Positions 56-31,691 of a stretch of 32,486 nucleotides of DNA are shown here, in pieces. A model generated the notes under the pieces. That model made no database searches. It saw only the letters and a list, made by a program, of their open reading frames with translations, and was not told the origin of the DNA. The stretch lies in sequence record MF630922.1, one strand, 5' to 3'. How positions within the stretch are numbered: position 1 is the first letter of the stretch; each line of letters opens with the position of its first letter. The stretch is from Escherichia phage IMM-001. The position numbers and the translations under genes were made by a program.

Positions 56-228
56 TTATTGATGTGTTAGTGAATGAATGTTGGAAGAACTACCATACAA
101 GTTGATTTTGATTCTGGCTGAGCCATTTTACGGTATACGTGTAACTTCTGTATATTCATTGTAGTCACAAAAGTAAGTGACCACTAACATACGTTTTTAC
201 GCGAAATATACACGCCATATACAATATA

Positions 229-297
229 ATATCTATATATATCAACCTTTTACTATATTATTATTATTATTATTATATATATGTATACTGTGTATAC
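229..297 (+). repeat. AT-rich ~65-bp repeat, copy A, containing (TTA)6 microsatellite at 258..275
   Basis: Core atatctatatatatcaaccttttact + (TTA)n + tactgtgtata is shared with 27746..27806; lies in the 574-bp ORF-free leader region. Confidence 0.8.
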
Positions 298-340
298 CGC
301 TCATAGATTAAATAGTTGATATATTCCTCTGTGATATTCT

Positions 341-4426: not shown

Positions 4427-4502
4427 GTTCTGCTGGCGTAACAGGATAACGCAAAGACCTCCTAAGTCTTAGTTACTGGTTCGAGTCCAGTGCGGAACAC
4501 CA
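4427..4502 (+). tRNA. tRNA-Arg, anticodon CCU (reads AGG), 76 nt with encoded CCA
   Basis: Hand-folded cloverleaf: acceptor gttctgc/gcggaac with one G-U, D stem gcgt/acgc, anticodon stem aagac/gtctt, loop ctCCTaa, variable agtt, T stem actgg/ccagt, T loop ttcgagt, discriminator A. Confidence 0.85.
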
Positions 4503-7696: not shown

Positions 7697-7718
7697 CCAT
7701 AAAAGCTATGTTAAACTA

Positions 7719-7742
7719 AGCCCCTAACGGGGCTTTTTTATT
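7719..7742 (+). terminator. Rho-independent terminator
   Basis: agcccc-taac-ggggct then T7. Confidence 0.7.
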
Positions 7743-7753
7743 GGAGCAAGAAA

Positions 7754-14904: not shown

Positions 14905-15564
14905 ATGGCCCATCTCAGCAATGGCACCCAAGTCTTCGTAGAAGGTAGTAGGGGTGAAGCTATCAACGTAACCGCAATTTCTAATGCGGCTAACCCTGTT
15001 TTTACCGTGGCTGCCAGTTCAGGCTTAGCGGTTGGTGACTACATTCTAGTAACCAGCGCATCATCTACATTTATGGCAGATAAGCAGCTTCGCGTAACGG
15101 CAGTTTCAGACACTAGCGTCACGGTTGAAGGCATTGACACCTCCAATGTCACCAAATTCCCAGCTGGCGGAACGGCTGAAATCGTTAAGATTCTTAGTTG
15201 GTTTGAGATTCCTTGCGTTCAGGACGTATCAACTGACGGTGGCGAACAGCAGTTCGTTAACTTCCAGTGCTTGTCCGATGACCGTGAGCAACAAATTCCA
15301 ACTTACAAGTCTGCGGTAACAAATACCTACACGTTCGCGCACGAATACACCAACCCGGTATATCCTATTCTGCGTAACTATGACGAAGCTGGTACTGTTG
15401 TTGCTATCCGTATGTTTGTACCTCGCGCTAGTGAGATGCGTCTTCAGTCTGGTACCATCGCCTTTAACGACACCCCAAGCATTGGTGTCAACGAAATCGA
15501 AACGGTATCCATCGCGGTATCTATCCGTGGCAGGCTGAGTTCTGTAGCATCTGAACTGTCATAA
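14905..15564 (+). CDS. major tail protein (219 aa)
   Basis: Position before chaperones and tape measure; strong terminator after it. Confidence 0.55.
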   Translation: MAHLSNGTQVFVEGSRGEAINVTAISNAANPVFTVAASSGLAVGDYILVTSASSTFMADKQLRVTAVSDTSVTVEGIDTSNVTKFPAGGTAEIVKILSWFEIPCVQDVSTDGGEQQFVNFQCLSDDREQQIPTYKSAVTNTYTFAHEYTNPVYPILRNYDEAGTVVAIRMFVPRASEMRLQSGTIAFNDTPSIGVNEIETVSIAVSIRGRLSSVASELS

Positions 15565-15571
15565 AAATTAA

Positions 15572-15593
15572 CCCTCTTCGGAGGGTTTTTTAT
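15572..15593 (+). terminator. Rho-independent terminator
   Basis: ccctc-ttcg-gaggg then T6. Confidence 0.75.
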
Positions 15594-15594
15594 T

Positions 15595-15639
15595 GATAGC
15601 ACTTTTTGTTAAAGGCTATTGTGTTGATTGCTGTATAGT
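15595..15639 (+). promoter_or_regulatory. Conserved IR promoter-like cassette copy 5, variant (GATAGCAC-ttt-TTGTTAAA, 22 nt, TATAGT)
   Basis: Motif family; leader tcattcatcgaaacg. Confidence 0.5.
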
Positions 15640-15672
15640 TCATTCATCGAAACGAAATGATAGATTAATGAA

Positions 15673-15924
15673 ATGAACAACGTAAAAAATATCATCAAAC
15701 TTGCTGCTGCTCTTGGTGCTTTCTACCTGGCAATTCAGATTGTCAACCCAACTAGTGGCGCAACAGCAAACTCTGATGCAATAAAGTATGAAACTAAATT
15801 CAATAGCGCATATTCATACTGTGAAAAAGTTGCTGGAGACAAGGTTAATCAGATCATGACTCATGGTCGCGAAGTGTGCACAGAAGTTGCTCACAAAATT
15901 GCAAAAGAAGACGAATCAAAGTAA
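15673..15924 (+). CDS. small secreted or membrane protein (83 aa)
   Basis: N-terminal hydrophobic stretch LAAALGAFYLAIQIV after a Lys-containing n-region; two Cys in mature part. Confidence 0.45.
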   Translation: MNNVKNIIKLAAALGAFYLAIQIVNPTSGATANSDAIKYETKFNSAYSYCEKVAGDKVNQIMTHGREVCTEVAHKIAKEDESK

Positions 15925-15959
15925 TATAATCATTCAACACAAACAAAGGAGATAATGAG

Positions 15960-16274
15960 ATGGCAAAATTTAAACTTTCACTTAAGGCGCTTCCTGACTT
16001 TAAACTTCCAGTTAAGTTTCAGCTGGCTAATGGTGAAGATGCTGAAGTAGTACTAACAGTTAAGCACAAGAAATCATCTGAGTTGCAGGAGATTCTTAAT
16101 CGTGAAAACTTCAGCACTAAAGAATTGATTAGCGAAATCTGCTCTGACTGGGATTTAGAAGAGCCATTTAACGATGAAAACGTAGATGAGTTTGCAAACC
16201 TTTTTCCTGGCGCTGTTCCATCACTGATGGATAGCTACATGAAAGCGCTTGCAGGTCAGCGAGTAAAAAACTAA
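15960..16274 (+). CDS. tail assembly chaperone, lambda G-like (104 aa)
   Basis: Position before tape measure; ends with slippery heptamer. Confidence 0.6.
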   Translation: MAKFKLSLKALPDFKLPVKFQLANGEDAEVVLTVKHKKSSELQEILNRENFSTKELISEICSDWDLEEPFNDENVDEFANLFPGAVPSLMDSYMKALAGQRVKN

Positions 16275-16588
16275 AACGCGCAGTATACCTACAATACCAG
16301 TCGCCGCCAACGGATTCCGAACTTGAAGCTATAGGAATGAAACGTTCCGACTACGAAGGTGAAGAGCCCGAGGAGTTATTCTTCGATGAAACAATGATGC
16401 AAAGCTGGGATGTGTACTGTGCTATGTCAACACAATGGCGAGTAGGAGCTTGCGGCGCCACAGGTCTTGATTACAATTGCCTTCCATTCTTGTTCAAAGT
16501 CTATAAAATAGATGATGAAGAAATGGCACTTAACGATATCAGAATACTTGAGGCTAAAGCCTTAGATATGATGAACGCCAAGAAATAG
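15960..16588 (+). CDS. tail assembly chaperone GT-like fusion via putative -1 frameshift at A_AAA_AAC (16265..16271)
   Basis: The -1 frame is open from 16235 through 16588 and overlaps the end of the G-like ORF; the downstream ORF has no convincing RBS. Confidence 0.5.
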
Positions 16589-16613
16589 CCATCCTTCGGG
16601 GTGGCTTTTTTTA
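16587..16613 (+). terminator. Rho-independent terminator
   Basis: agccatcc-ttcg-gggtggct then T7. Confidence 0.7.
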
Positions 16614-16626
16614 TTATGGAGACAAT

Positions 16627-19599
16627 ATGGCAACTAACGAAATTGCTGGTATCACGCTAGCCGTCGACGTCGCTCAGGTCGATAGAGGTACGCAGTCCTT
16701 ACAGAAATTCAGGCAAGCAAACGAGCAAGCTGCAACAGGCATTAATAGCTTCGTTAATGCTGAACTTGTAGCCAAGACTCAAGCAAGGGATACAGCAAGG
16801 CAGCTTGAGGAGCAGCGAAAATCTTTCGCATCGCTTCAGCAAGTAATCGACCCAACTGCTGCTAAATTCCAGAAGTTGCAGAAAGCGGCAACCGAATTGG
16901 ACAAAGCATTTGAGTCTGGGCTGGTTCCTGATGATGAGTTCTTCAGGCTTGGCTCTGTTATTGAAACTCAAATTAATAAGCTAAACAGGTCCAGGGCTGC
17001 GTTGAGTGAAGAGGGTAGGGCTGCACTCCAAGCTTCAATAGATAAAGAAAAAGCAACAGCAACCGCGCAAAAGTTCATTCAATCCCTTGAGAACGAGGCG
17101 AATGCGGCAACTCTCACAAGGACTGAGCTGCTTCAACTTAAGGCTGCTCAGCTAGGCGTTAGCGACCAAGCGGCACCGATTATCGACAGGATTGGTAAGG
17201 CCGCTGAGGCGTCAGCAGTTCAATTGCAGAAGCAAAGCTCAGCTTTTGTTAAGTCAGGTTTAAGCGCAGGGCAGTACAAGCAAGCAATACGACAGCTCCC
17301 TGCTCAGATTACAGATATCGGAACCTCACTTGCTGGCGGCATCCCAATCTGGCTGATTGCAATTCAGCAAGGCGGTCAGATTAAGGATAGTTTCGGCGGT
17401 ATTGCGAACACGGCAAGGTTTGCACTTGCGGCCATTAATCCATTGACAGCTGTTGTTGGTACTTTGGGGCTGGCTCTTGGTGCTCTTGGTGTTGCAGCTT
17501 ATCAGGCTGATAAGAACACTCGCGGACTAGCATCAACGATAACGCTTGTTGGCAATTCAACTATCACTTCAACGGCACAGATAAATCAGGTTGTTGACGG
17601 GATTGAGAAAACAACATTAGCCACGCGCGGTCTTATTCAGGAAATAGCAAATAGTCTGGTAGCAAACGGTAATCTTACGCTTACGCAGATAGATAAGATA
17701 ACCAAGGCAACAGCGCAGTGGGCGACTGTAACATCAACCGACTCAAAGACTATCCTTGGATACTTTGACCAGATCACAAAGGACCCAATAAAGGGACTTA
17801 CTGACCTTGATAAGCAATTTAACTTTCTTCAGTATGGGCAGTTAAAATATATTGAGAATATCAGGAAGACGGCTGGAGAAACAGAGGCAGTAACCGCAGC
17901 CACTGAACTATTCGCTGAAGTTATGGAAAATAGGCTAGCAGACGTAGCGCTAAGCCTCAACCCTCTTGAAAGCGCGTGGAATAGCTTCAGGAAGTTTGTA
18001 AGTGAGATCTTGGATGACATCAGCAAAAGGACGCTTGGGGCCCTTAACTTAATAACTGACGTTGTTGCTGGTACGATTGAGCAGATAAGGTCACTCATAA
18101 ACTCCGGCGACATTCTCTTGGGTGAGTTTGCTATAGCAGCAACCAAGACGCTTCAGTCAATACCCGGCCTTGGTGATATAGGTAATGAGGCAATTGCTGA
18201 GCAGCAAAAGATTGTTGATGCAGCCAAGAAGCAAAATGAGGAGTTAGCAAAAAGCATATCTGAGCGAGATGCTAGAATCAGGAAGGGTGAGCTTGGCTAT
18301 GTGGAGAGAAATAATAACACTAACCTGAATGGAAATAATGCATCAACTGATAAGGAGTTCGGAGCAAGGAAGAAGGCCCTAGCAGACGAGCTTGATGCCA
18401 TAATGAAGGCTAGAAGGGAGAGGAACAAAGCTGTAAAAGAAGAAAGGGATTTAACCTTATCTTATGAATCTGGCGTTCTTGCACTTCAGGCTCAATTGAA
18501 GGTTTTGCAAGAGCATAGAACGATAAACGATGTAATAAGCAACGAGCGCAAGCAGCTATTTCAGGAAGAGGCTAAGTTTGCAATACTCGAGCAAAGATAT
18601 GCTGATGGTAGCCTAACCAAGTCTCAAGCCAAACTGCTCTCGCAGAAGGATATCATTCTTGAACAGGCTAAACAGAAGGCTGAACTAGGAGATCAGATTG
18701 TTCTTCAAGAGAGGTCAAACAAGTTACTTGATGATAACCTAAAGAAGACTGTTCAGATTACAAATGAGGCAAATAATGTTTCTCTTGCTGCTAATTTATC
18801 TGACAGGGAGAAGCAAAGGGCGAAAGAGCTTCAGGCGCTTCAATCCAATCAGTTAAACAAAGGTGGCTCTGTAGATGACGCTGATTTCCAGGCTTTACTG
18901 GAAGCAAGGCGTAATTTTTATGCTCAAGAGGACGCGCTACGTGAAAACTGGCTAGCCGGTGTGCAGTCATCATTCGCTAATTGGGCAGAGAGCGCGACAG
19001 ATGCATTTTCTATAGCTGGTGAATTGACCACTTCCGTGTTTACCGGAATTACAGAGCAGATTACCAGCCTTGTAACAACTGGCACGGCAGACTTCAGGAG
19101 CTTTACCGTTGAAATCCTGAAACAGATTGCCAAGATTGCAACACAGCTCTTAATTGTTAAGGCGATTGAGTCAAGTTTAAGCAGCTTCGGCGGAACTGGC
19201 GGCGCTATTGGTTCAATTGGTGGCGCGCTTGGCTTTGCTGGCGGTGGATATACTGGTGATGGAGGTAAGTACCAACCTGCCGGAACTGTGCACAAAGGTG
19301 AATTTGTTTTCACCAAAGAAGCAACCAGCAGGATTGGAGTCAAGAACCTGTACAAGCTTATGCGAGGTTATGCAAATGGCGGTGCTGTTGGTGGGCCATC
19401 TGGTTATGCTAATGGTGGTGCTGTCGGCGGTACTAATGTCAGTGTTGGCGGCGTTACTGTTAACGTAAATTCTGGAATCGGTGGCGGCAATGATGCTAAG
19501 GCTATAGAATCTGGAGTTAAGGTTATCGTGGCTGAGGAAATCAGTAAGTCATTCCAGCAGGGCGGCAGGGCGTATCAGTTCTTGCGCGGTTACAACTAA
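16627..19599 (+). CDS. tail tape measure protein (990 aa)
   Basis: Long helical protein with hydrophobic central segments and Gly-rich C-terminus, after chaperone pair. Confidence 0.85.
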
Positions 19600-19630: not shown

Positions 19631-19981
19631 ATGGCATTGCAAACATTCAATTGGTGCTTAAACGTACTCAATGGCGGCTCTTCATTTACCAATGCCAACA
19701 ATATTAGGGTTGTATCATTTGGTAATGGTTACCAACAGCGTGGCACTGGAGGATACAGGACGAACAAGAGGACGTATACTGTTAGCTACGTTGGCCGTGA
19801 GTGGGAGGCAGTAATGAACTTCTGCCTTGATCACATCGTAAAACCTTTCGCATGGACTACGCCACAGGGTGAGTTAAAGATGTTTGTTATTCAGCAGGAT
19901 AGCATTAGCGTCTCGCCGAGCACAAAAGAAGTTCAGACTGTTAGTATGCAATTTACTGAAGTTTTCACTTCAATGAGTTAA
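19631..19981 (+). CDS. minor tail protein, lambda M-like (116 aa)
   Basis: Position and size after tape measure. Confidence 0.55.
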   Translation: MALQTFNWCLNVLNGGSSFTNANNIRVVSFGNGYQQRGTGGYRTNKRTYTVSYVGREWEAVMNFCLDHIVKPFAWTTPQGELKMFVIQQDSISVSPSTKEVQTVSMQFTEVFTSMS

Positions 19982-19985
19982 ACTA

Positions 19986-20009
19986 AGGCCCATAAAGGGC
20001 CTTTTTTTA
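19986..20009 (+). terminator. Rho-independent terminator
   Basis: aggccc-ataaa-gggcct then T7. Confidence 0.7.
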
Positions 20010-20020
20010 TTGGAGAGAAT

Positions 20021-25100: not shown

Positions 25101-25549
25101 GTCTTACTTACAATGGAGTTCAGTACAGTTCTGGGATGAGCATGGAGCTAACAGGTTCTGATGGTAATGTTCGTAGCCAGGTCATCTTTGACGCTAACAG
25201 GTTCGCGATCAGTAATGGTGTTAGTTCCGGTTCCGGTCAGTGGTCATTGCCTTTCGTAGTTGAGAATAATCAGGTCTTCATTCAGAGCGCAGTAATTCAG
25301 GACGGTTCAATCACTAACGCGAAGATTGGTAACAGGATTCAATCTAACAACTACGTGGCTGGATCTCAAGGATGGGCGATTGACAAGGCAGGTAGCGCCG
25401 AGTTTAGTAACGCAACTGTAAGGGGGAATTTATACGCAAATAACGGTAACTTTGCATTTAACGGAACAAACAACACTGTACAGATTAACAACAACGGAAT
25501 TACAGTTAATTTACCGAATGGTGGCAGGGTTGTAGTTGGAGTGTGGTAA
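22163..25549 (+). CDS. central tail fibre / host specificity protein, lambda J-like (1128 aa)
   Basis: Size and position after I-like gene; long multi-domain protein. Confidence 0.8.
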   Translation: MAQDIKIYGSKGGSSKQKQPVEQPDNLISVNKVKVLLAVSDGEVDNSFSLKDLYLADVPVQNQNGTYNYEGVTAEFRPGTQSQDYIAGLEGASSEVQVNREITNSTPYIIAVNNTQLSAIRVKLYWPRLINQESNGDLNGTTCEYAIDLSVDGSTYSEYTRGVANGKTTSGYDRSIRVNLPAEFSSALVRVRKITADSESSTLVNGMQITTYQEVIDAKFRYPLTALVYVEFSSDLFPNGIPAISIKKKWKLIRVPTNYNPETRTYSGTWNGTFKMAYSNNPAWVLYDLVTNQRYGLDQRELGITIDKWGLYEAAQFCDQMVPDGKGGVEPRYLCDVVIQQKVEAYQVIRDICSIFRGLTFYDGEQIGIVVDKPRQPSYVFTNDNVVDGLFNRTFGSDKSLYTVANVQFDDVENSYQQDVEPVFELEATRRFGYNPVDLTAIGCTRRSEANRRGRWLLKTNLRSETISFTTGLEGMIPMIGEVIAVNDQAWSSNYTLNLSGRIESVSGLQVFVPFKIDAAAGDRILINKPDGMPEYRTIASVSEDGMTLQLNTAFSFNPQPDTVFAIDKENLALQQYVVTGIQKADSDGDDAFGYSITAVEYDPNKYDEIDYGVNIQDRPTSIVEPDTLLAPENVQVSSYSKVVQGISVETMVITWDKVQYAKTYTVQWRKENGNWINVPRTANTEVDIEGIYAGIYQVRVRAVSDTENVSAWSEIVSASLTGKIGTPSAPTVITASDDEVFGIMVKWGFPDNSTDTSYTELQQVADNGDGTYTPENASLLTLVPYPSYEYWHTTLPAGKVIWYRARLIDKIGNVSPWTDFVMGMASDDVSAIIGEIKVDIENSEGFKYLQQNAIESNGAIQAQAESIIENTLANDGDVRRMTKENSKRKAEFIQAVNLIADEERARVEALTQLKAQIDDEIVASLTRIDTALAEETQARTTADTALSARLGENEAALNEKLDTYVTADSIGAQYGIKLGLTYNGVQYSSGMSMELTGSDGNVRSQVIFDANRFAISNGVSSGSGQWSLPFVVENNQVFIQSAVIQDGSITNAKIGNRIQSNNYVAGSQGWAIDKAGSAEFSNATVRGNLYANNGNFAFNGTNNTVQINNNGITVNLPNGGRVVVGVW

Positions 25550-25553
25550 ATGA

Positions 25554-25579
25554 TTAGGCCCCTTTTGGGGCCTTTTCTT
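25554..25579. terminator. Bidirectional rho-independent terminator between convergent genes
   Basis: aggcccc-tttt-ggggcct with T-runs readable on both strands. Confidence 0.7.
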
Positions 25580-26542
25580 TTAGTAGAAGTTTGGGATAAA
25601 TGGCAGAGCCATTGATATGTTTGTGTCGAATGGGAACTGCGCCCCAGTCTGTGTTGAATAGTTCCCTATTACAGTTCCAGGTACAGCCATTACGGCGCCT
25701 CCAGACATACAGACACCCTTGTACCTTAAGTTGTTATACCCACCAGTAACCCTTGTTGTAGCTCCACACCTGAGTAGTGGAAAGAACCCCCCATTTATTG
25801 ACTGGAAACCATTGGTTATTTGTATAAAACCACTAAGAACGAAAGGTCTCCTGACGCTTGAGAAGACAATCTGACCAGAACTGTTAGACATTGTAAGGCC
25901 GTGGCCAGCTATTGGAGGCTCATTTCTGAATATCACTAATTGGACGTAAGTGCTTGCTGCCACGTCATCTATGCCGCCGTAATTTATATCGCGACACCAT
26001 ATTGTACTCCCGTCACTCTCGAGAGAGACGTTTGGGTTATCCCATTTACCAAACGGGATTCCGCTAACTGGAAGTGAAGCCGCGCCGTTAACCTGAATCC
26101 CACCAACCCATGCCGCCGACATTAACCTAGAATTGCTTGATATTGCCAAAAAGTCAGTTGAGTTCTCAACCAGTATGCCAGGGCTTGACGACGATGAAGC
26201 ATCAAGTATCTCAAAGCAATTACCAGCGAAGTCAATAATTCGACCTCTGGCACCATTAAAGTTACTAAGCGTTATCCTGCCAACTCCGTCATTTACCTTC
26301 TGAAACCCGTTAATATAATAAACTTCAGGTACAACATCATAGGCGTCAACGTGGACGGCCTTTGTTGGCAAGCAGAATGCGGTAGAGCCTGGTGACATGG
26401 TTAAACCAAAGTCCCATGATGATGCTGGCGTCGAAAGTCCATTAGTATTTATTGATCCAGTCACAGCAGGTGCTCTTAGTCCAGCGGTAATCTCCATCGC
26501 TGGCCTTCCGTCATTTAGGTCAATCAATATACCTTGCGGCAT
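25580..26542 (-). CDS. putative receptor-binding protein / tail fibre (320 aa)
   Basis: Minus-strand gene after J-like gene, TAATG-coupled to the upstream lipoprotein gene; ATG 26542 has AAGGAG 8 nt upstream (ORF-track GTG 26551 sits inside that RBS). Confidence 0.4.
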   Translation of the reverse strand: MPQGILIDLNDGRPAMEITAGLRAPAVTGSINTNGLSTPASSWDFGLTMSPGSTAFCLPTKAVHVDAYDVVPEVYYINGFQKVNDGVGRITLSNFNGARGRIIDFAGNCFEILDASSSSSPGILVENSTDFLAISSNSRLMSAAWVGGIQVNGAASLPVSGIPFGKWDNPNVSLESDGSTIWCRDINYGGIDDVAASTYVQLVIFRNEPPIAGHGLTMSNSSGQIVFSSVRRPFVLSGFIQITNGFQSINGGFFPLLRCGATTRVTGGYNNLRYKGVCMSGGAVMAVPGTVIGNYSTQTGAQFPFDTNISMALPFIPNFY

Positions 26543-26787
26543 TATTTCCACTCCTTAGATCCGTGGTCAGCAACTGAACCACCGTAACCGCCGCCAACCT
26601 TGCTCTCAATACCAGCGTAGCGCACATCAACTTCACCAGCCGGTACAACTACACCATTTTTCCATTTAGCAACGCACACGCCGTTTGCTTGCGTTGCACA
26701 CCAACCGTCAGGACGAGGAGCAGATGAACAACCTACCATCATGATTGCTGCTGCGGCGATGATTGAAAGTTTGATTAAGTTAGTCAT
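26542..26787 (-). CDS. small lipoprotein (81 aa), candidate superinfection-exclusion factor
   Basis: Signal peptide [20 protein letters not shown] with lipobox-like MVGC; RBS aagga. Confidence 0.65.
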
Positions 26788-26870: not shown

Positions 26871-27578
26871 GTTTATTCTATTTTTTGCGACATTAAAATA
26901 CTCAGTATCTAGCTCTATACCTATAAATGACCTGTTTGTGTTTACGCATGCTACGCCAGTTGTTCCGCTACCCATGCAGTTATCAAGAACTAAGTCACCC
27001 TCGTCAGTGTATGTTTTTATTAGGTACTCCATCAAGGAAACCGGCTTTTGCGTTGGGTGTAGTGATGATTTCTGCTTGTCGCTAGCCATCTTTATCACAT
27101 CCCTTGGGTATCTCATTGTTGAATCATAAGATAGTGATTCGAAATTCTGATCTCCATAGTTTGTTCCATTGTCGTTCCTCTTTGTTGCTGTTTTTCTTTT
27201 GTGACCCTCTGTCATTTGCGGGTTGTATTTGTAAGGTTTTTTGTAGAAAACAAGTATGTTTTCATGAGCCTTCATCGGAGCTCTCTTGGCATTAAGGTGT
27301 CCGGTTGCATGTGTTTTTTCCCATATCCACTCATGCTTCAACATTTCAAGATTGGAGCACCCGAGTACTTTATCGAATGGTGTTTGCGCCGTAAGTACAA
27401 TTGCACCCTTGCACACCCTCCTGTATTGAGTCCATAGCAAGTCAAGGTCTATAACTGAATCCCACTTGTTTCTGGTTGTTCCGTATGGTAAGTCGCACAA
27501 AATCATGTCAATTGAATTGTCTGGGATTTCTTTCATAAGCTCAAGGCAGTCGCCATTCATTAATTTAATCATTTCCAT
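26856..27578 (-). CDS. orphan DNA methyltransferase, beta-class, DPPY motif (240 aa; may start at second ATG 27572)
   Basis: Motif IV ILCDLPYG near N-terminus and motif I VLDNCMGSGTTG near C-terminus; no adjacent restriction enzyme gene. Confidence 0.8.
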   Translation of the reverse strand: MEMIKLMNGDCLELMKEIPDNSIDMILCDLPYGTTRNKWDSVIDLDLLWTQYRRVCKGAIVLTAQTPFDKVLGCSNLEMLKHEWIWEKTHATGHLNAKRAPMKAHENILVFYKKPYKYNPQMTEGHKRKTATKRNDNGTNYGDQNFESLSYDSTMRYPRDVIKMASDKQKSSLHPTQKPVSLMEYLIKTYTDEGDLVLDNCMGSGTTGVACVNTNRSFIGIELDTEYFNVAKNRINSTNS

Positions 27579-27646: not shown

Positions 27647-27745
27647 CTGGTTACGCGTAACCGATGTAAATCGATGTATACCATATGCATCCGCTGGAAA
27701 TCGTATACGCATTGTTACGCCTAGTTACGCCATAGTTACATTAAA

Positions 27746-27806
27746 ATATCTATATATATCAACCTTTTACTCTTATTATTATTATTATATATATTACTGT
27801 GTATAT
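27746..27806 (+). repeat. AT-rich repeat, copy B, containing (TTA)5 microsatellite at 27773..27787
   Basis: Shares core with 229..297; lies in the 535-bp ORF-free region between divergent blocks. Confidence 0.8.
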
Positions 27807-28113
27807 CATGTAACCACTGTTCTGGAGTGTTCCGGCTATAATTTTTATATCATGTGATTTTATACAGTATTTCGCGGCACATATACCAATGCACCACCCG
27901 CTAAAATCGGTATACACGGTATACGCATTATTTACATTGAGCTATAGCGGCCCAGCCGGAGCAGTTAAGCGTAACTAATGCCAATGTCTACACGTAATTA
28001 CAAAATTATACGCGTATACTTGATTAATTAATCGGGGATACCAATTAGACGTGGTGACAAGCGTTCTGCATAATTATCACATCGAAAGCAAACAACCATA
28101 GAGAGATAGAGAA

Positions 28114-30693: not shown

Positions 30694-31131
30694 ATGCACG
30701 TAATTACTGGTCAGATTCGCCGCGCTCCATTCACTAAAGAAGGTCAGAATGCTAATGGTACCTGGAAAATGTTTGCGGTTGATTTGAGTGAGCGATACAA
30801 AGATAAAGATGGTCAGACTCAGTATAGTAACTATCGCGCAGTCTTCTTCGCGAAAGAGTCAATTTTAGATTGGTATAATGAAGCATTTCAAGAAGGTAAA
30901 ATTGTTAGCGTTAGCGCTGAAAGTTTATCTGTAGATGTTCGAGATAAAGATGGCAAGACTTACGTAACAATCAATATGAATAATCCTCGACTTGAGTTTA
31001 GTCAGCGTGGAGATTCGCAACCACAACAAAATCAGAGACAGCAGCAGCAACAACAGCAGCAGAATAATCAGCAGAAGAGGCAACCACAACCACAACAACA
31101 GCAGCAGTTTGACGACTCCATTCCATTCTGA
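30694..31131 (+). CDS. ssb: single-stranded DNA-binding protein-like (145 aa) with poly-Gln linker and acidic tip
   Basis: C-terminal FDDSIPF resembles the SSB DDDIPF tail; preceded by a Gln-rich linker; N-terminal domain not canonical. Confidence 0.55.
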   Translation: MHVITGQIRRAPFTKEGQNANGTWKMFAVDLSERYKDKDGQTQYSNYRAVFFAKESILDWYNEAFQEGKIVSVSAESLSVDVRDKDGKTYVTINMNNPRLEFSQRGDSQPQQNQRQQQQQQQQNNQQKRQPQPQQQQQFDDSIPF

Positions 31132-31140
31132 TAAAAGATA

Positions 31141-31163
31141 AGGCCCCTTTCGGGGCCTTTTTA
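31141..31163. terminator. Bidirectional rho-independent terminator
   Basis: aggcccc-tttc-ggggcct then T5; convergent genes on both sides. Confidence 0.7.
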
Positions 31164-31691
31164 TGGCATGTTTACTCGAATTGAAACGAACGAGTCAGAA
31201 GGTATATCTATAGGGTCTCCGTTACTGAAGCCGTCAATTTTATTTCTCGCGAAAGACGGAGATGAATCGTGAGTGCGATGATAAGTTTTAACAACTATTG
31301 AACCATCAGCTTCAACCTCGTAATCTAGCCATATTCTAGGCTGCTTATTCAAGTCTACAGGTACCTCAAATCCACCGTTAACACCGCCCCAAGAAGTGTC
31401 AGAATTTAGGCCAAGCACACCTGATACCTTATAAACACCAGTAGAAACCCTCTCCACTGAAGCTCCTTCTGATTCCTCGTTTGTTTCAAAACTCCCATCT
31501 CGGAATACCTTAATTATAGGTGAGGCCACTTTGACGAAACCGCTAGGGTCCACTGTTGTGTTTAATCCGTGTAAAAGTTCCATTACCGCAAGTCCGCCAT
31601 TATAAGTTGAGTTAGCTATATAACAACGCCTTGCCCCATAAGATATGGCAAGCTGACCCCACTCGCGTGGAGTTGGGCCAGGCATATCCAT
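31161..31691 (-). CDS. tail-fibre-like protein, C-terminal part (176 aa from first ATG); frame stays open upstream to 31970 with no start codon
   Basis: Upstream in-frame translation ...NLQNKLQARSNLGLGTSATINHGDDAGQ... looks fibre-like; no ATG/GTG/TTG in 93 upstream codons. Confidence 0.4.
   Translation of the reverse strand: MDMPGPTPREWGQLAISYGARRCYIANSTYNGGLAVMELLHGLNTTVDPSGFVKVASPIIKVFRDGSFETNEESEGASVERVSTGVYKVSGVLGLNSDTSWGGVNGGFEVPVDLNKQPRIWLDYEVEADGSIVVKTYHRTHDSSPSFARNKIDGFSNGDPIDIPSDSFVSIRVNMP

What the first reader, a model, noticed from the sequence alone, without database searches (positions are those of the whole stretch)
15595..15924. Small signal-peptide protein behind its own promoter cassette inside the tail operon
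Immediately after the major tail protein terminator comes cassette copy 5, then an 83-aa ORF with an N-terminal hydrophobic segment and two cysteines in the predicted mature part. A secreted or membrane protein expressed from its own element in the middle of the tail genes is a candidate superinfection-exclusion or host envelope-modifying factor.
Basis: partly seen in the sequence, partly recalled or inferred. Interest (0 to 1): 0.5.

Follow-up and report, generated by a model that had tools for sequence, protein, structure and literature searches.

The report
Small exported accessory protein in tail operon
A T1-like E. coli phage carries, wedged between its tail-tube and tail-chaperone genes, a small lineage-specific gene with its own promoter module that encodes an exported envelope protein of unknown function, most plausibly a second-layer block against superinfecting phages, but this is untested.

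Summary
An 83-codon ATG ORF (15673-15924, +) follows the major-tail-protein terminator and one copy of the phage's repeated promoter module. It has a signal-peptide-like N-terminus and two invariant cysteines. It is a real gene: about 81 Braunvirinae (Rtp-like Drexlerviridae) genomes carry it, it forms PHROG 22925 (unknown function), and dN/dS is 0.1-0.4.

New here: the gene plus its module is a lineage-specific insertion. Rogunavirus, Tlsvirus, Warwickvirus and Webervirus go straight from the terminator to the tail assembly chaperone. The ancestral -10 box and leader survive just after the ORF's stop codon. In Rtp and AugustePiccard the same slot, behind the same module and leader, holds an unrelated 128-aa lipoprotein, so this is a swappable slot for exported cargo.

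The gene does not track the outer-membrane receptor, being present in both LptD and FepA phages. The window has a separate Rtp45-like receptor-masking lipoprotein. No homologue of known function or informative fold was found.

My best guess is a post-adsorption exclusion factor acting at the DNA-entry or tape-measure step, analogous to HK97 gp15. That part is inference only. Interest is moderate to low: an ordinary "hypothetical" accessory gene in a tidy, testable context.

The parts
14905..15564 (+). Major tail (tube) protein gene, the upstream neighbour.
   Evidence: PF08813 at E 7e-68 and phrog_584.
15570..15595 (+). Intrinsic terminator-like hairpin (AACCCTCTTCGGAGGGTT) followed by a T-run, closing the major-tail-protein unit.
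   Evidence: Found by the scan. Identical in all Braunvirinae loci examined.
15596..15613 (+). Direct-repeat box ATAGCACTTTTTGTTAAA, 'T' subtype of the T1-like repeat aaATAGCACnnnTTGnTAAAA. It is the upstream element of the promoter module.
   Evidence: 9 copies in the window against 0.5 expected. About 20 copies in Rtp. Described in TLS, about 76 nt upstream of start codons (PMC11447400).
15634..15639 (+). -10-like hexamer TATAGT, preceded by TG. It lies 22 nt downstream of the TTGTTA in the repeat box.
   Evidence: Same position and spacing in all 9 window copies. The spacer is variable but the hexamer is conserved in homologous loci. Promoter function is inferred.
15645..15672 (+). Conserved initial-transcribed leader (CATCGAAACGAAATGATAGATTAATGAA) with a weak Shine-Dalgarno-like GATAGA. 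The RNA is unstructured.
   Evidence: The leader is conserved across cassettes. It is almost identical upstream of rtp34 in Rtp. RNA fold z-score is +1.0.
15673..15924 (+). ORF83 coding sequence: 83 aa plus stop, PHROG 22925.
15673..15768 (+). Codons 1-32: export signal. n-region MNNVKNIIK, h-core LAAALGAFYLAIQIV, c-region NPTSGATA. It is either a cleavable signal peptide or a signal-anchor.
   Evidence: The hydrophobic core is 12-15 aa, like the two lipoprotein signals. Sites obeying the (-3,-1) rule occur after A32, S34 and A36 in 11 to 13 of 13 members. In N-terminal codons 1-27, dN is about 0.10, against about 0.5 for codons 28-82.
15769..15921 (+). Codons 33-83: predicted periplasmic helical domain. 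Invariant residues are C50, G55, G65 and C69, plus the stripe A36, Y39, F43, A46, C50.
   Evidence: Alignment. AlphaFold2 predicts helix at low to moderate confidence. dN is about twice that of the neighbouring genes.
15925..15951 (+). Retained ancestral tail-assembly-chaperone promoter-like box (TATAAT, 15925-15930) and leader, ending in the strong Shine-Dalgarno AAGGAG (15946-15951).
   Evidence: It aligns with the Rogunavirus gap between major tail protein and chaperone, TGTTATAATTTCAACTCAAACAAAC..GAGAGG.
15960..16588 (+). Tail assembly chaperone (15960-16274) and its frameshift extension (16337-16588), co-transcribed downstream genes.
   Evidence: PF08748 at E 1e-32 and PF08809 at E 1e-13. 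No terminator lies between ORF83 and this gene.
16587..16616 (+). Terminator-like hairpin closing the ORF83-chaperone unit, just before the tape measure gene (16627-19599).

Best explanation
ORF83 is a lineage-specific accessory gene, 'moron-like' in Hendrix's sense, of Braunvirinae T1-like phages. A block made of the phage's standard promoter module (repeat box, -10, conserved leader) plus one small gene was inserted between the major-tail-protein terminator and the older promoter and leader of the tail assembly chaperone.

The product is targeted to the Sec pathway by its N-terminus. It ends up with a helical C-terminal domain of about 50 residues in the periplasm. That domain is either released by signal peptidase or tethered by the unusually conserved N-terminal segment, and it is probably stabilised by the C50/C69 pair.

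Inferred mechanism: in the infected cell it blocks a post-adsorption step of infection by related phages, namely passage of the tail tip, tape measure protein or DNA across the periplasm and inner membrane. This would complement the separate receptor-masking lipoprotein (the Rtp45 homologue).

What is shown: the anatomy, the insertion history, purifying selection, the export signals, the alternative exported cargo in the same slot, and independence from receptor type. What is inferred: promoter activity, topology, the disulfide, and the exclusion function itself.
For: - Real, conserved gene.
- Insertion history: four other Drexlerviridae groups have no gene in this slot. The ancestral -10 box and leader are retained after the stop codon.
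- Swappable slot: the same slot, behind a near-identical module and leader, carries an unrelated lipoprotein in Rtp, AugustePiccard, RobRod40 and MM01.
- Export: plus the SignalP 4.1 and TMHMM positives reported for the gene next to the MSK major tail protein (PMC8421802).
- Not tied to receptor: ORF83-type JeanPiccard and OzMSK use LptD and ORF83-type IME253 uses FepA, while rtp34-type AugustePiccard also uses LptD.
- Receptor masking is done by another gene in the window.
- The periplasmic domain evolves about twice as fast as its neighbours, as expected for a protein that interacts with variable partners.
- Precedent: the HK97 gp15 moron lies between the tail chaperone and tape-measure genes. 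It is a small inner-membrane protein that blocks DNA entry with tail-determined specificity (PMC3594210).
- Restricted to virulent phage genomes: absent from 5,426 E. coli genomes and from plasmids.
Against: - No experiment, homologue of known function or informative fold exists.
- The structure models are low confidence and show one long helix, in which C50 and C69 could not pair within one chain.
- There is no terminator after the ORF, so the promoter may exist mainly to express the chaperone. G+C content matches the neighbouring chaperone gene (0.389 against 0.394).
- The Shine-Dalgarno sequence is weak in this phage.
- The phage already has a dedicated exclusion lipoprotein.
- The argument from position (linkage to the tape measure gene) is an analogy only.
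- A signal segment more conserved than the mature domain is atypical for a simple secreted protein and hints at a different, membrane-embedded role.
Confidence: 0.33

Rival explanations
1. Lysis-timing regulator. A small periplasmic or weakly anchored protein, in the manner of the T4 RI antiholin, binds the periplasmic face of the pinholin/SAR-endolysin system and tunes or delays lysis.
For: - The N-terminal segment is short, rich in Ala and Gly (LAAALGAFYLAIQIV), marginal as a transmembrane helix, and more conserved than the rest, as in signal-arrest-release domains.
- The protein is small, helical and periplasmic.
- T1-like phages use a pinholin and a SAR endolysin (PMC13164509).
Against: - The gene is far from the lysis cassette, which in Rtp lies at 40.7-41.8 kb.
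- No similarity to the family's holin or spanin.
- The alternative cargo in the slot is a lipoprotein with no obvious lysis link.
- In the group-B homologues the segment is Val-rich and more hydrophobic.
Confidence: 0.12
2. Host-takeover or counter-defence factor acting in the envelope. It would inhibit or mimic a host periplasmic or inner-membrane protein, for example a protease, a divisome coiled-coil component or an envelope-stress or abortive-infection sensor, to secure the infection. It would not exclude other phages.
For: - Exported, fast-evolving helical domain.
- Accessory distribution restricted to one subfamily.
- Independent of receptor type.
- The same repeat-box promoter type also precedes early-type genes such as the DNA methyltransferase.
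Against: - No PADLOC, Pfam or structural hit points to a target.
- No host homologue that it could mimic was found among 5.8 billion proteins.
- The hypothesis is unspecific.
Confidence: 0.18
3. Passenger gene with little function. The repeat-box promoter is there to restart transcription of the chaperone and tape-measure genes after the strong major-tail-protein terminator, and ORF83 merely occupies the leader.
For: - No terminator lies between ORF83 and the chaperone, and the unit ends only at 16587-16606.
- Other subfamilies also have a promoter-like box after the terminator.
- Weak Shine-Dalgarno sequence.
- Composition matches the chaperone gene.
Against: - Purifying selection with invariant Cys and Gly residues and a conserved reading frame across 47 clusters.
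- The start codon sits at the same distance from the module as for all other first genes.
- The ancestral chaperone -10 box is still present downstream.
- The slot is always filled by an exported protein in Braunvirinae.
Confidence: 0.07
4. Virion or tail-assembly component, a small membrane-active protein packaged in the tail.
For: - It is located among tail genes.
- It has amphipathic helices.
Against: - A Sec-type N-terminal signal is incompatible with cytoplasmic tail assembly.
- It is absent from four related subfamilies that have the same tail genes.
- In Rtp it is replaced by a lipoprotein.
- It is not among the structural bands named for MSK, although that analysis only matched band sizes.
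Confidence: 0.03

Closest known systems
HK97 gp15 moron (YebO-like superinfection exclusion protein)
   Same: Both are small envelope proteins with an N-terminal hydrophobic segment. Both are encoded by an added transcription unit inside the tail operon, next to the chaperone and tape-measure genes. gp15 acts without touching the outer-membrane receptor, which parallels ORF83's independence from receptor type (PMC3594210).
   Different: - No sequence relationship: no YebO or any other Pfam hit.
- HK97 is temperate and gp15 is expressed from the prophage, whereas this phage is virulent.
- ORF83 lies between the major tail protein and the chaperone, not between the chaperone and the tape measure gene.
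- ORF83 has no terminator of its own and no G+C anomaly.
- Its function is untested.
Rtp45 / T1 Cor / T5 Llp receptor-masking exclusion lipoproteins
   Same: All are small exported proteins of siphophages with a cysteine pair. In this lineage they are expressed behind the same repeat-box promoter type.
   Different: - ORF83 has no lipobox.
- No sequence similarity.
- It is not linked to the receptor-binding protein gene and does not co-vary with receptor type.
- The window has its own Rtp45 homologue at 83% identity.
rtp34 of phage Rtp (128-aa predicted lipoprotein, function unknown)
   Same: It occupies exactly the same slot, behind the same terminator, repeat box, -10 and leader, and it is also exported.
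   Different: The sequence is unrelated. It has a lipoprotein signal (LLAGC) instead of a signal peptidase I type signal. The downstream ancestral -10 box is not retained in Rtp.
T4 Spackle, Imm and RI (small periplasmic or membrane proteins of a virulent phage that block entry or regulate lysis)
   Same: Comparable size class (83-97 aa). These proteins have N-terminal export or anchor signals, act in the envelope of an infected cell, and are used by a virulent phage. This comparison rests on general knowledge and was not tested here.
   Different: No detectable sequence or fold match. The tape measure protein of this phage shows no lysozyme domain that a Spackle-like inhibitor would target.
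T1-like direct repeat aaATAGCACnnnTTGnTAAAA (phage TLS 'DR' elements)
   Same: [quoted passage not shown]
   Different: Here it is shown as part of a fixed module (box, 22 nt, -10-like hexamer, conserved leader) that travelled together with a cargo gene. Its function is still unresolved in the literature, where stoperator, enhancer site and UP-like element have been proposed.

Membership tests
PHROG 22925 (Braunvirinae hypothetical protein family) | Significant full-length profile match. | tested here: met
   E 1.5e-28, residues 1-80 of 83 against profile positions 1-80 of 82. 81 phage records and 47 clusters are homologous.
Moron (Juhala/Hendrix definition) | An extra gene present between two genes that are adjacent in related phages. 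| tested here: met
   The major tail protein and chaperone genes are adjacent in Rogunavirus, Tlsvirus, Warwickvirus and Webervirus. The ancestral junction is retained after ORF83.
Moron (Juhala/Hendrix definition) | Own promoter. | tested here: inconclusive
   A complete repeat-box, -10 and leader module lies directly upstream. Promoter activity was not measured, and the box is 22 nt from the -10, which is not a standard sigma-70 geometry.
Moron (Juhala/Hendrix definition) | Own terminator downstream. | tested here: not met
   No terminator-like site lies between 15924 and 15960. The next one is at 16587-16606, after the chaperone genes.
Moron (Juhala/Hendrix definition) | Base composition different from the flanking genes. 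| tested here: not met
   G+C is 0.389 against 0.394 for the chaperone gene. The window average is 0.443.
HK97 gp15 / YebO family | Sequence homology to YebO or gp15. | tested here: not met
   No Pfam family at E up to 1 and no NCBIfam hit of relevance.
HK97 gp15 / YebO family | Blocks DNA entry without blocking the receptor, with specificity set by the tail. | not testable with these tools
   This needs plating efficiency, adsorption and DNA-entry assays.
Cor / Llp / Rtp45 exclusion lipoproteins | Lipoprotein signal with a lipobox cysteine. | tested here: not met
   There is no [LVI][ASTVI][GAS]C motif. The first Cys is residue 50. The window's true lipoprotein has MVGC.
Cor / Llp / Rtp45 exclusion lipoproteins | Encoded next to the receptor-binding protein gene and co-varying with the receptor. 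| tested here: not met
   The gene lies 10 kb from the receptor-binding protein locus. It is present in both LptD- and FepA-dependent phages.
Sec/signal peptidase I secreted proteins | Positive n-region, hydrophobic h-region, c-region with small residues at -3 and -1. | tested here: met
   K5 and K9, core L10-V24, allowed sites after A32, S34 and A36 in 11-13 of 13 members. SignalP 4.1 was reported positive for the MSK homologue, mapped by gene order. Actual cleavage versus anchoring was not determined.
Spanins / holins of T1-like phages | Homology to Rtp63 (holin) or Rtp65 (spanin). | tested here: not met
   hhalign probabilities are 0.3% and 0.1%.

The most novel reading that the evidence does not exclude
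The conserved N-terminal segment, rather than the fast-evolving periplasmic domain, could be the business end. In this reading ORF83 is a weakly anchored, RI-like sensor and effector. It either plugs the inner-membrane route used by T1-like tape measure proteins or couples superinfection to delayed lysis. That would give a virulent siphophage with a pinholin/SAR-endolysin system a lysis-inhibition or entry-immunity circuit so far known only from T-even phages. The slot between the major tail protein and the chaperone would then be a dedicated, swappable 'envelope effector' position driven by the T1-type repeat promoter.
Probability: 0.08. Interest if true: 0.7.

Novelty: new member of a known kind. 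Interest (0 to 1): 0.35.

Why it matters
Braunvirinae and other T1-like phages are notorious laboratory and fermentation contaminants and are also candidates for phage therapy. How they exclude each other and cross the inner membrane is known only at the receptor step (Cor, Llp, Rtp45).

A second, receptor-independent envelope factor encoded beside the tape-measure module would be an easy handle on the poorly understood DNA-entry step of siphophages. The finding also gives a concrete natural example of the unexplained T1-type repeat box moving as a unit with a cargo gene. That supports the idea that the box is part of a portable promoter. If ORF83 has no phenotype, it is simply one more conserved hypothetical gene.

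Tried and rejected
- Homology searches with Pfam, NCBIfam, PADLOC and PHROGs gave nothing beyond an unknown-function PHROG.
- A profile search against PDB sequences gave only a chance hit at E 0.18.
- A Foldseek search against viral predicted structures gave nothing.
- Two searches of 5.8 billion proteins, one with a single sequence and one with a profile, found only the same narrow phage family.
The single-sequence model (pLDDT 75) and the 14-sequence model (pLDDT 62) show only an N-terminal helix plus one long helix. They cannot settle hairpin versus coiled coil.
- I tested whether ORF83 is a diverged copy of rtp34 or of the Rtp45-like lipoprotein. It is not.
- I tested for similarity to the holin and spanin. 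There is none.
- I looked for ORF83 in E. coli genomes (as prophage DNA) and in plasmids. There is none.
- I looked for further cargo types in IMG/VR and in metagenomes, using the leader and terminator sequences. Only ORF83-type loci turned up among the relevant hits. Most metagenome hits were unrelated marine contigs sharing the hairpin by chance.
- The MSK paper's 'structural proteome' turned out to be matching of band sizes, so it says little about absence from virions.
- One literature search was too broad and useless.
- The apparent palindrome TAGCA-N5-TGCTA in the repeat box is not kept in two copies (AGCTA), so I do not claim an operator.

Full report
**1. What is there**

The window is a large part of a virulent T1-like siphophage genome, family Drexlerviridae, subfamily Braunvirinae (the Rtp group). 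Its closest records are Escherichia phages ES, AN_ECEAS, CY1 and TR1-3, at about 88% DNA identity over the region.

The local gene order is as follows:
- Major tail protein, 14905-15564 (PF08813).
- Hairpin plus T-run, 15570-15595.
- Repeat box ATAGCACTTTTTGTTAAA, 15596-15613.
- TATAGT, 15634-15639.
- Conserved leader.
- ORF83, 15673-15924.
- TATAAT, 15925-15930, and a strong Shine-Dalgarno sequence.
- Tail assembly chaperone, 15960-16274 (PF08748), and its frameshift part, 16337-16588 (DUF1799).
- Terminator, 16587-16606.
- Tape measure protein, 16627-19599.

**2. It is a real gene**

- tblastn finds ORF83 in 81 phage records. A profile search finds 47 clusters, all 46-88 aa, on contigs of at most about 49 kb. 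It matches phrog_22925, annotated 'unknown function'.
- In all 13 loci I inspected, it sits between the major tail protein and the chaperone.
- Pairwise dN/dS is 0.1-0.4. dN is about twice that of the flanking tail genes.
- Residues invariant across diverse members include C50, G55, G65 and C69, and a helical stripe A36, Y39, F43, A46, C50.

**3. The 'cassette'**

The upstream box is not private to this gene.
- The pattern ATAGCACnnnTTGnTAAA occurs 9 times in the window against 0.5 expected. It occurs about 20 times in Rtp.
[quoted passage not shown] It is followed at fixed spacing by a -10-like hexamer and a conserved leader, CATCRAMAMCGARATG.
- It precedes early-type small genes, a DNA methyltransferase, a structural gene and the exclusion lipoprotein.
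- The box was already described in phage TLS as a 21-nt direct repeat about 76 nt upstream of start codons, also present in T1, Rtp and Rogue1. Its function is unresolved (PMC11447400).
- The TTGCTA within the box lies 22 nt from the -10. It therefore cannot be a normal -35, and promoter function of the module remains an inference.

**4. Insertion history: the main new result**

- In Rogunavirus (phiJLA23, AHP42), Tlsvirus (DanielBernoulli), Warwickvirus (tonn) and Webervirus (Sushi), the major-tail-protein terminator is followed after 70-100 nt by the chaperone gene. Only an extended -10-like box lies in between. By the Rtp annotation notes, the same holds for T1.
- In the window, the sequence right after the ORF83 stop codon (TAATATAATCATTCAACACAAACAAAGGAG) aligns with that ancestral gap (TGTTATAATTTCAACTCAAACAAAC..GAGAGG).
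- So a block made of the repeat-box module plus ORF83, about 15596-15924, was inserted between the terminator and the old chaperone promoter and leader.
- In Rtp, AugustePiccard, RobRod40 and MM01, the same slot, behind a nearly identical box, -10 and leader, holds rtp34 instead. rtp34 is an unrelated 128-aa protein with a lipoprotein signal, MKAIIAIMATLLLAGC.
- Scans of IMG/VR and of metagenomes found no third cargo type.
- The slot is therefore a Braunvirinae-specific position that carries alternative exported proteins.

**5. Export and shape**

- The N-terminus has two lysines, a hydrophobic core of 12-15 residues (the same size as the signals of the two lipoproteins), then NPT(S/G). Several sites obey the (-3,-1) rule: after A32, S34 and A36, in 11 to 13 of 13 members.
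- The MSK paper reports that MSK_000011, the gene after the major tail protein MSK_000010, is one of only two SignalP 4.1 positives in that genome. The other is the cor/Rtp45-like lipoprotein. MSK_000011 is also TMHMM-positive (PMC8421802). The MSK sequence carries the ORF83 homologue exactly there. This mapping rests on gene order.
- Unusually, residues 1-27 are more conserved than the rest. dN is about 0.10 against about 0.5, and synonymous changes are present. The segment may therefore persist as an anchor or have a specific role.
- AlphaFold2 gives an N-terminal helix, a break at 24-33, and a long helix. Mean pLDDT is 75 from the single sequence and 62 from 14 sequences. That is not good enough to choose between a disulfide-stapled hairpin, which the invariant G55 and G65 suggest, and an extended helix that pairs between chains.

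**6. What it is not**

- It is not a lipoprotein and not a Cor, Llp or Rtp45 relative. The window has its own Rtp45 homologue at 26542-26787 on the minus strand, 83% identical with lipobox MVGC, next to the receptor-binding protein gene at 25580-26551. Rtp45 has been shown structurally to bind LptDE and block receptor recognition (10.1101/2025.07.07.663478).
- It is not related to the family's holin or spanin.
- It is not found in E. coli chromosomes or plasmids.
- It has no Pfam, NCBIfam, PADLOC, PDB or BFVD match.

**7. Function**

- The cargo does not follow the outer-membrane receptor. ORF83-type JeanPiccard and OzMSK use LptD. ORF83-type IME253 uses FepA. rtp34-type AugustePiccard and Rtp also use LptD.
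- So if the protein protects against other phages, it must act after adsorption.
- The best precedent is the HK97 gp15 moron. It is a small inner-membrane protein encoded between the chaperone and tape-measure genes. It blocks DNA entry with tail-determined specificity and leaves receptors untouched (PMC3594210).
- I therefore favour a post-adsorption exclusion role at the DNA-entry or tape-measure step, with confidence about one third. I am roughly 85% confident in the descriptive core: an accessory, exported protein that is not a virion component.
- The rivals are a lysis-timing regulator, another host-envelope takeover or counter-defence factor, a near-neutral passenger of the chaperone promoter, and a virion component. 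The last is very unlikely.

**8. Verdict**

In kind, this is a new, uncharacterised member of the familiar class of small envelope-targeted phage accessory genes. It is of moderate to low interest, but it sits in a clean comparative setting (empty slot, ORF83 or rtp34) that makes the experiments straightforward.

Noticed in passing
window 1226, 2276, 3590, 7249, 15596, 29745 (+); 26872, 27647, 32430 (-): There are nine copies of the module ATAGCACnnnTTGnTAAA, about 19 nt, a TATAAT-like hexamer, 5 nt, then the leader CATCRAMAMCGARATG. The TTGCTA lies 22 nt from the -10, which is not sigma-70 geometry. The spacer between the blocks varies while the blocks are conserved. The box is published for TLS with unresolved function (PMC11447400). 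A fixed link to a -10 and a conserved initial transcribed sequence suggests a factor-dependent or UP-like promoter.
   Followed up: partly
window 25580-26787 (-), cassette at 26872 (-): This is the locus for the receptor-binding protein and the exclusion lipoprotein. The 81-aa lipoprotein (lipobox MVGC) is 83% identical to Rtp45, which binds LptDE. The 323-aa receptor-binding protein is only 39% identical to Rtp44. The phage therefore probably targets LptD but with a diverged receptor-binding protein.
   Followed up: partly
window 15925-15951: A perfect TATAAT overlaps the end of ORF83. Together with the leader, it is homologous to the gap between major tail protein and chaperone in Rogunavirus. 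The chaperone may therefore keep a second promoter of its own. This box is lost in Rtp, where rtp34 fills the slot.
   Followed up: yes
window 16627-19599: The tape measure protein is 990 aa, against 921 and 920 aa in Rtp and AugustePiccard. The ends are 60-90% identical, but residues of about 300-600 are almost unrelated and contain gaps. This mosaic centre coincides with the switch from ORF83-type to rtp34-type cargo, but phylogeny is confounded with cargo type.
   Followed up: partly
window 4427-4499 (+): A tRNA gene lies among the early small ORFs (Rfam RF00005, 58.9 bits).
   Followed up: no
window 220-303 and 27737-27812: Two copies of an AT-rich block, 27.5 kb apart and about 94% identical over 35 nt. 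The sequence is TACA(A/T)TA(T/A)AATATCTATATATATCAACCTTTTACT followed by TATTATTATTAT...ATATAT. They lie at the borders of divergent transcription units. They could be origin-like or regulatory regions.
   Followed up: no
L017 (phage BEK26, Warwickvirus) 2001-2318: A weak relative of rtp34 (26% identity, E 1e-3) sits in the replication module of a different Drexlerviridae subfamily. This suggests the lipoprotein cargo moves between genome contexts.
   Followed up: no
window 7713-7743, 15565-15595, 19980-20010, 25544-25576, 31129-31166: A family of similar G+C-rich tetraloop terminators (GNNNCTTCGGNNNC type) divides the late region into short units, the 'transcriptons' noted for T1 and TLS. The exact hairpin after the major tail protein also occurs by chance in many unrelated marine metagenome contigs.
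   Followed up: partly
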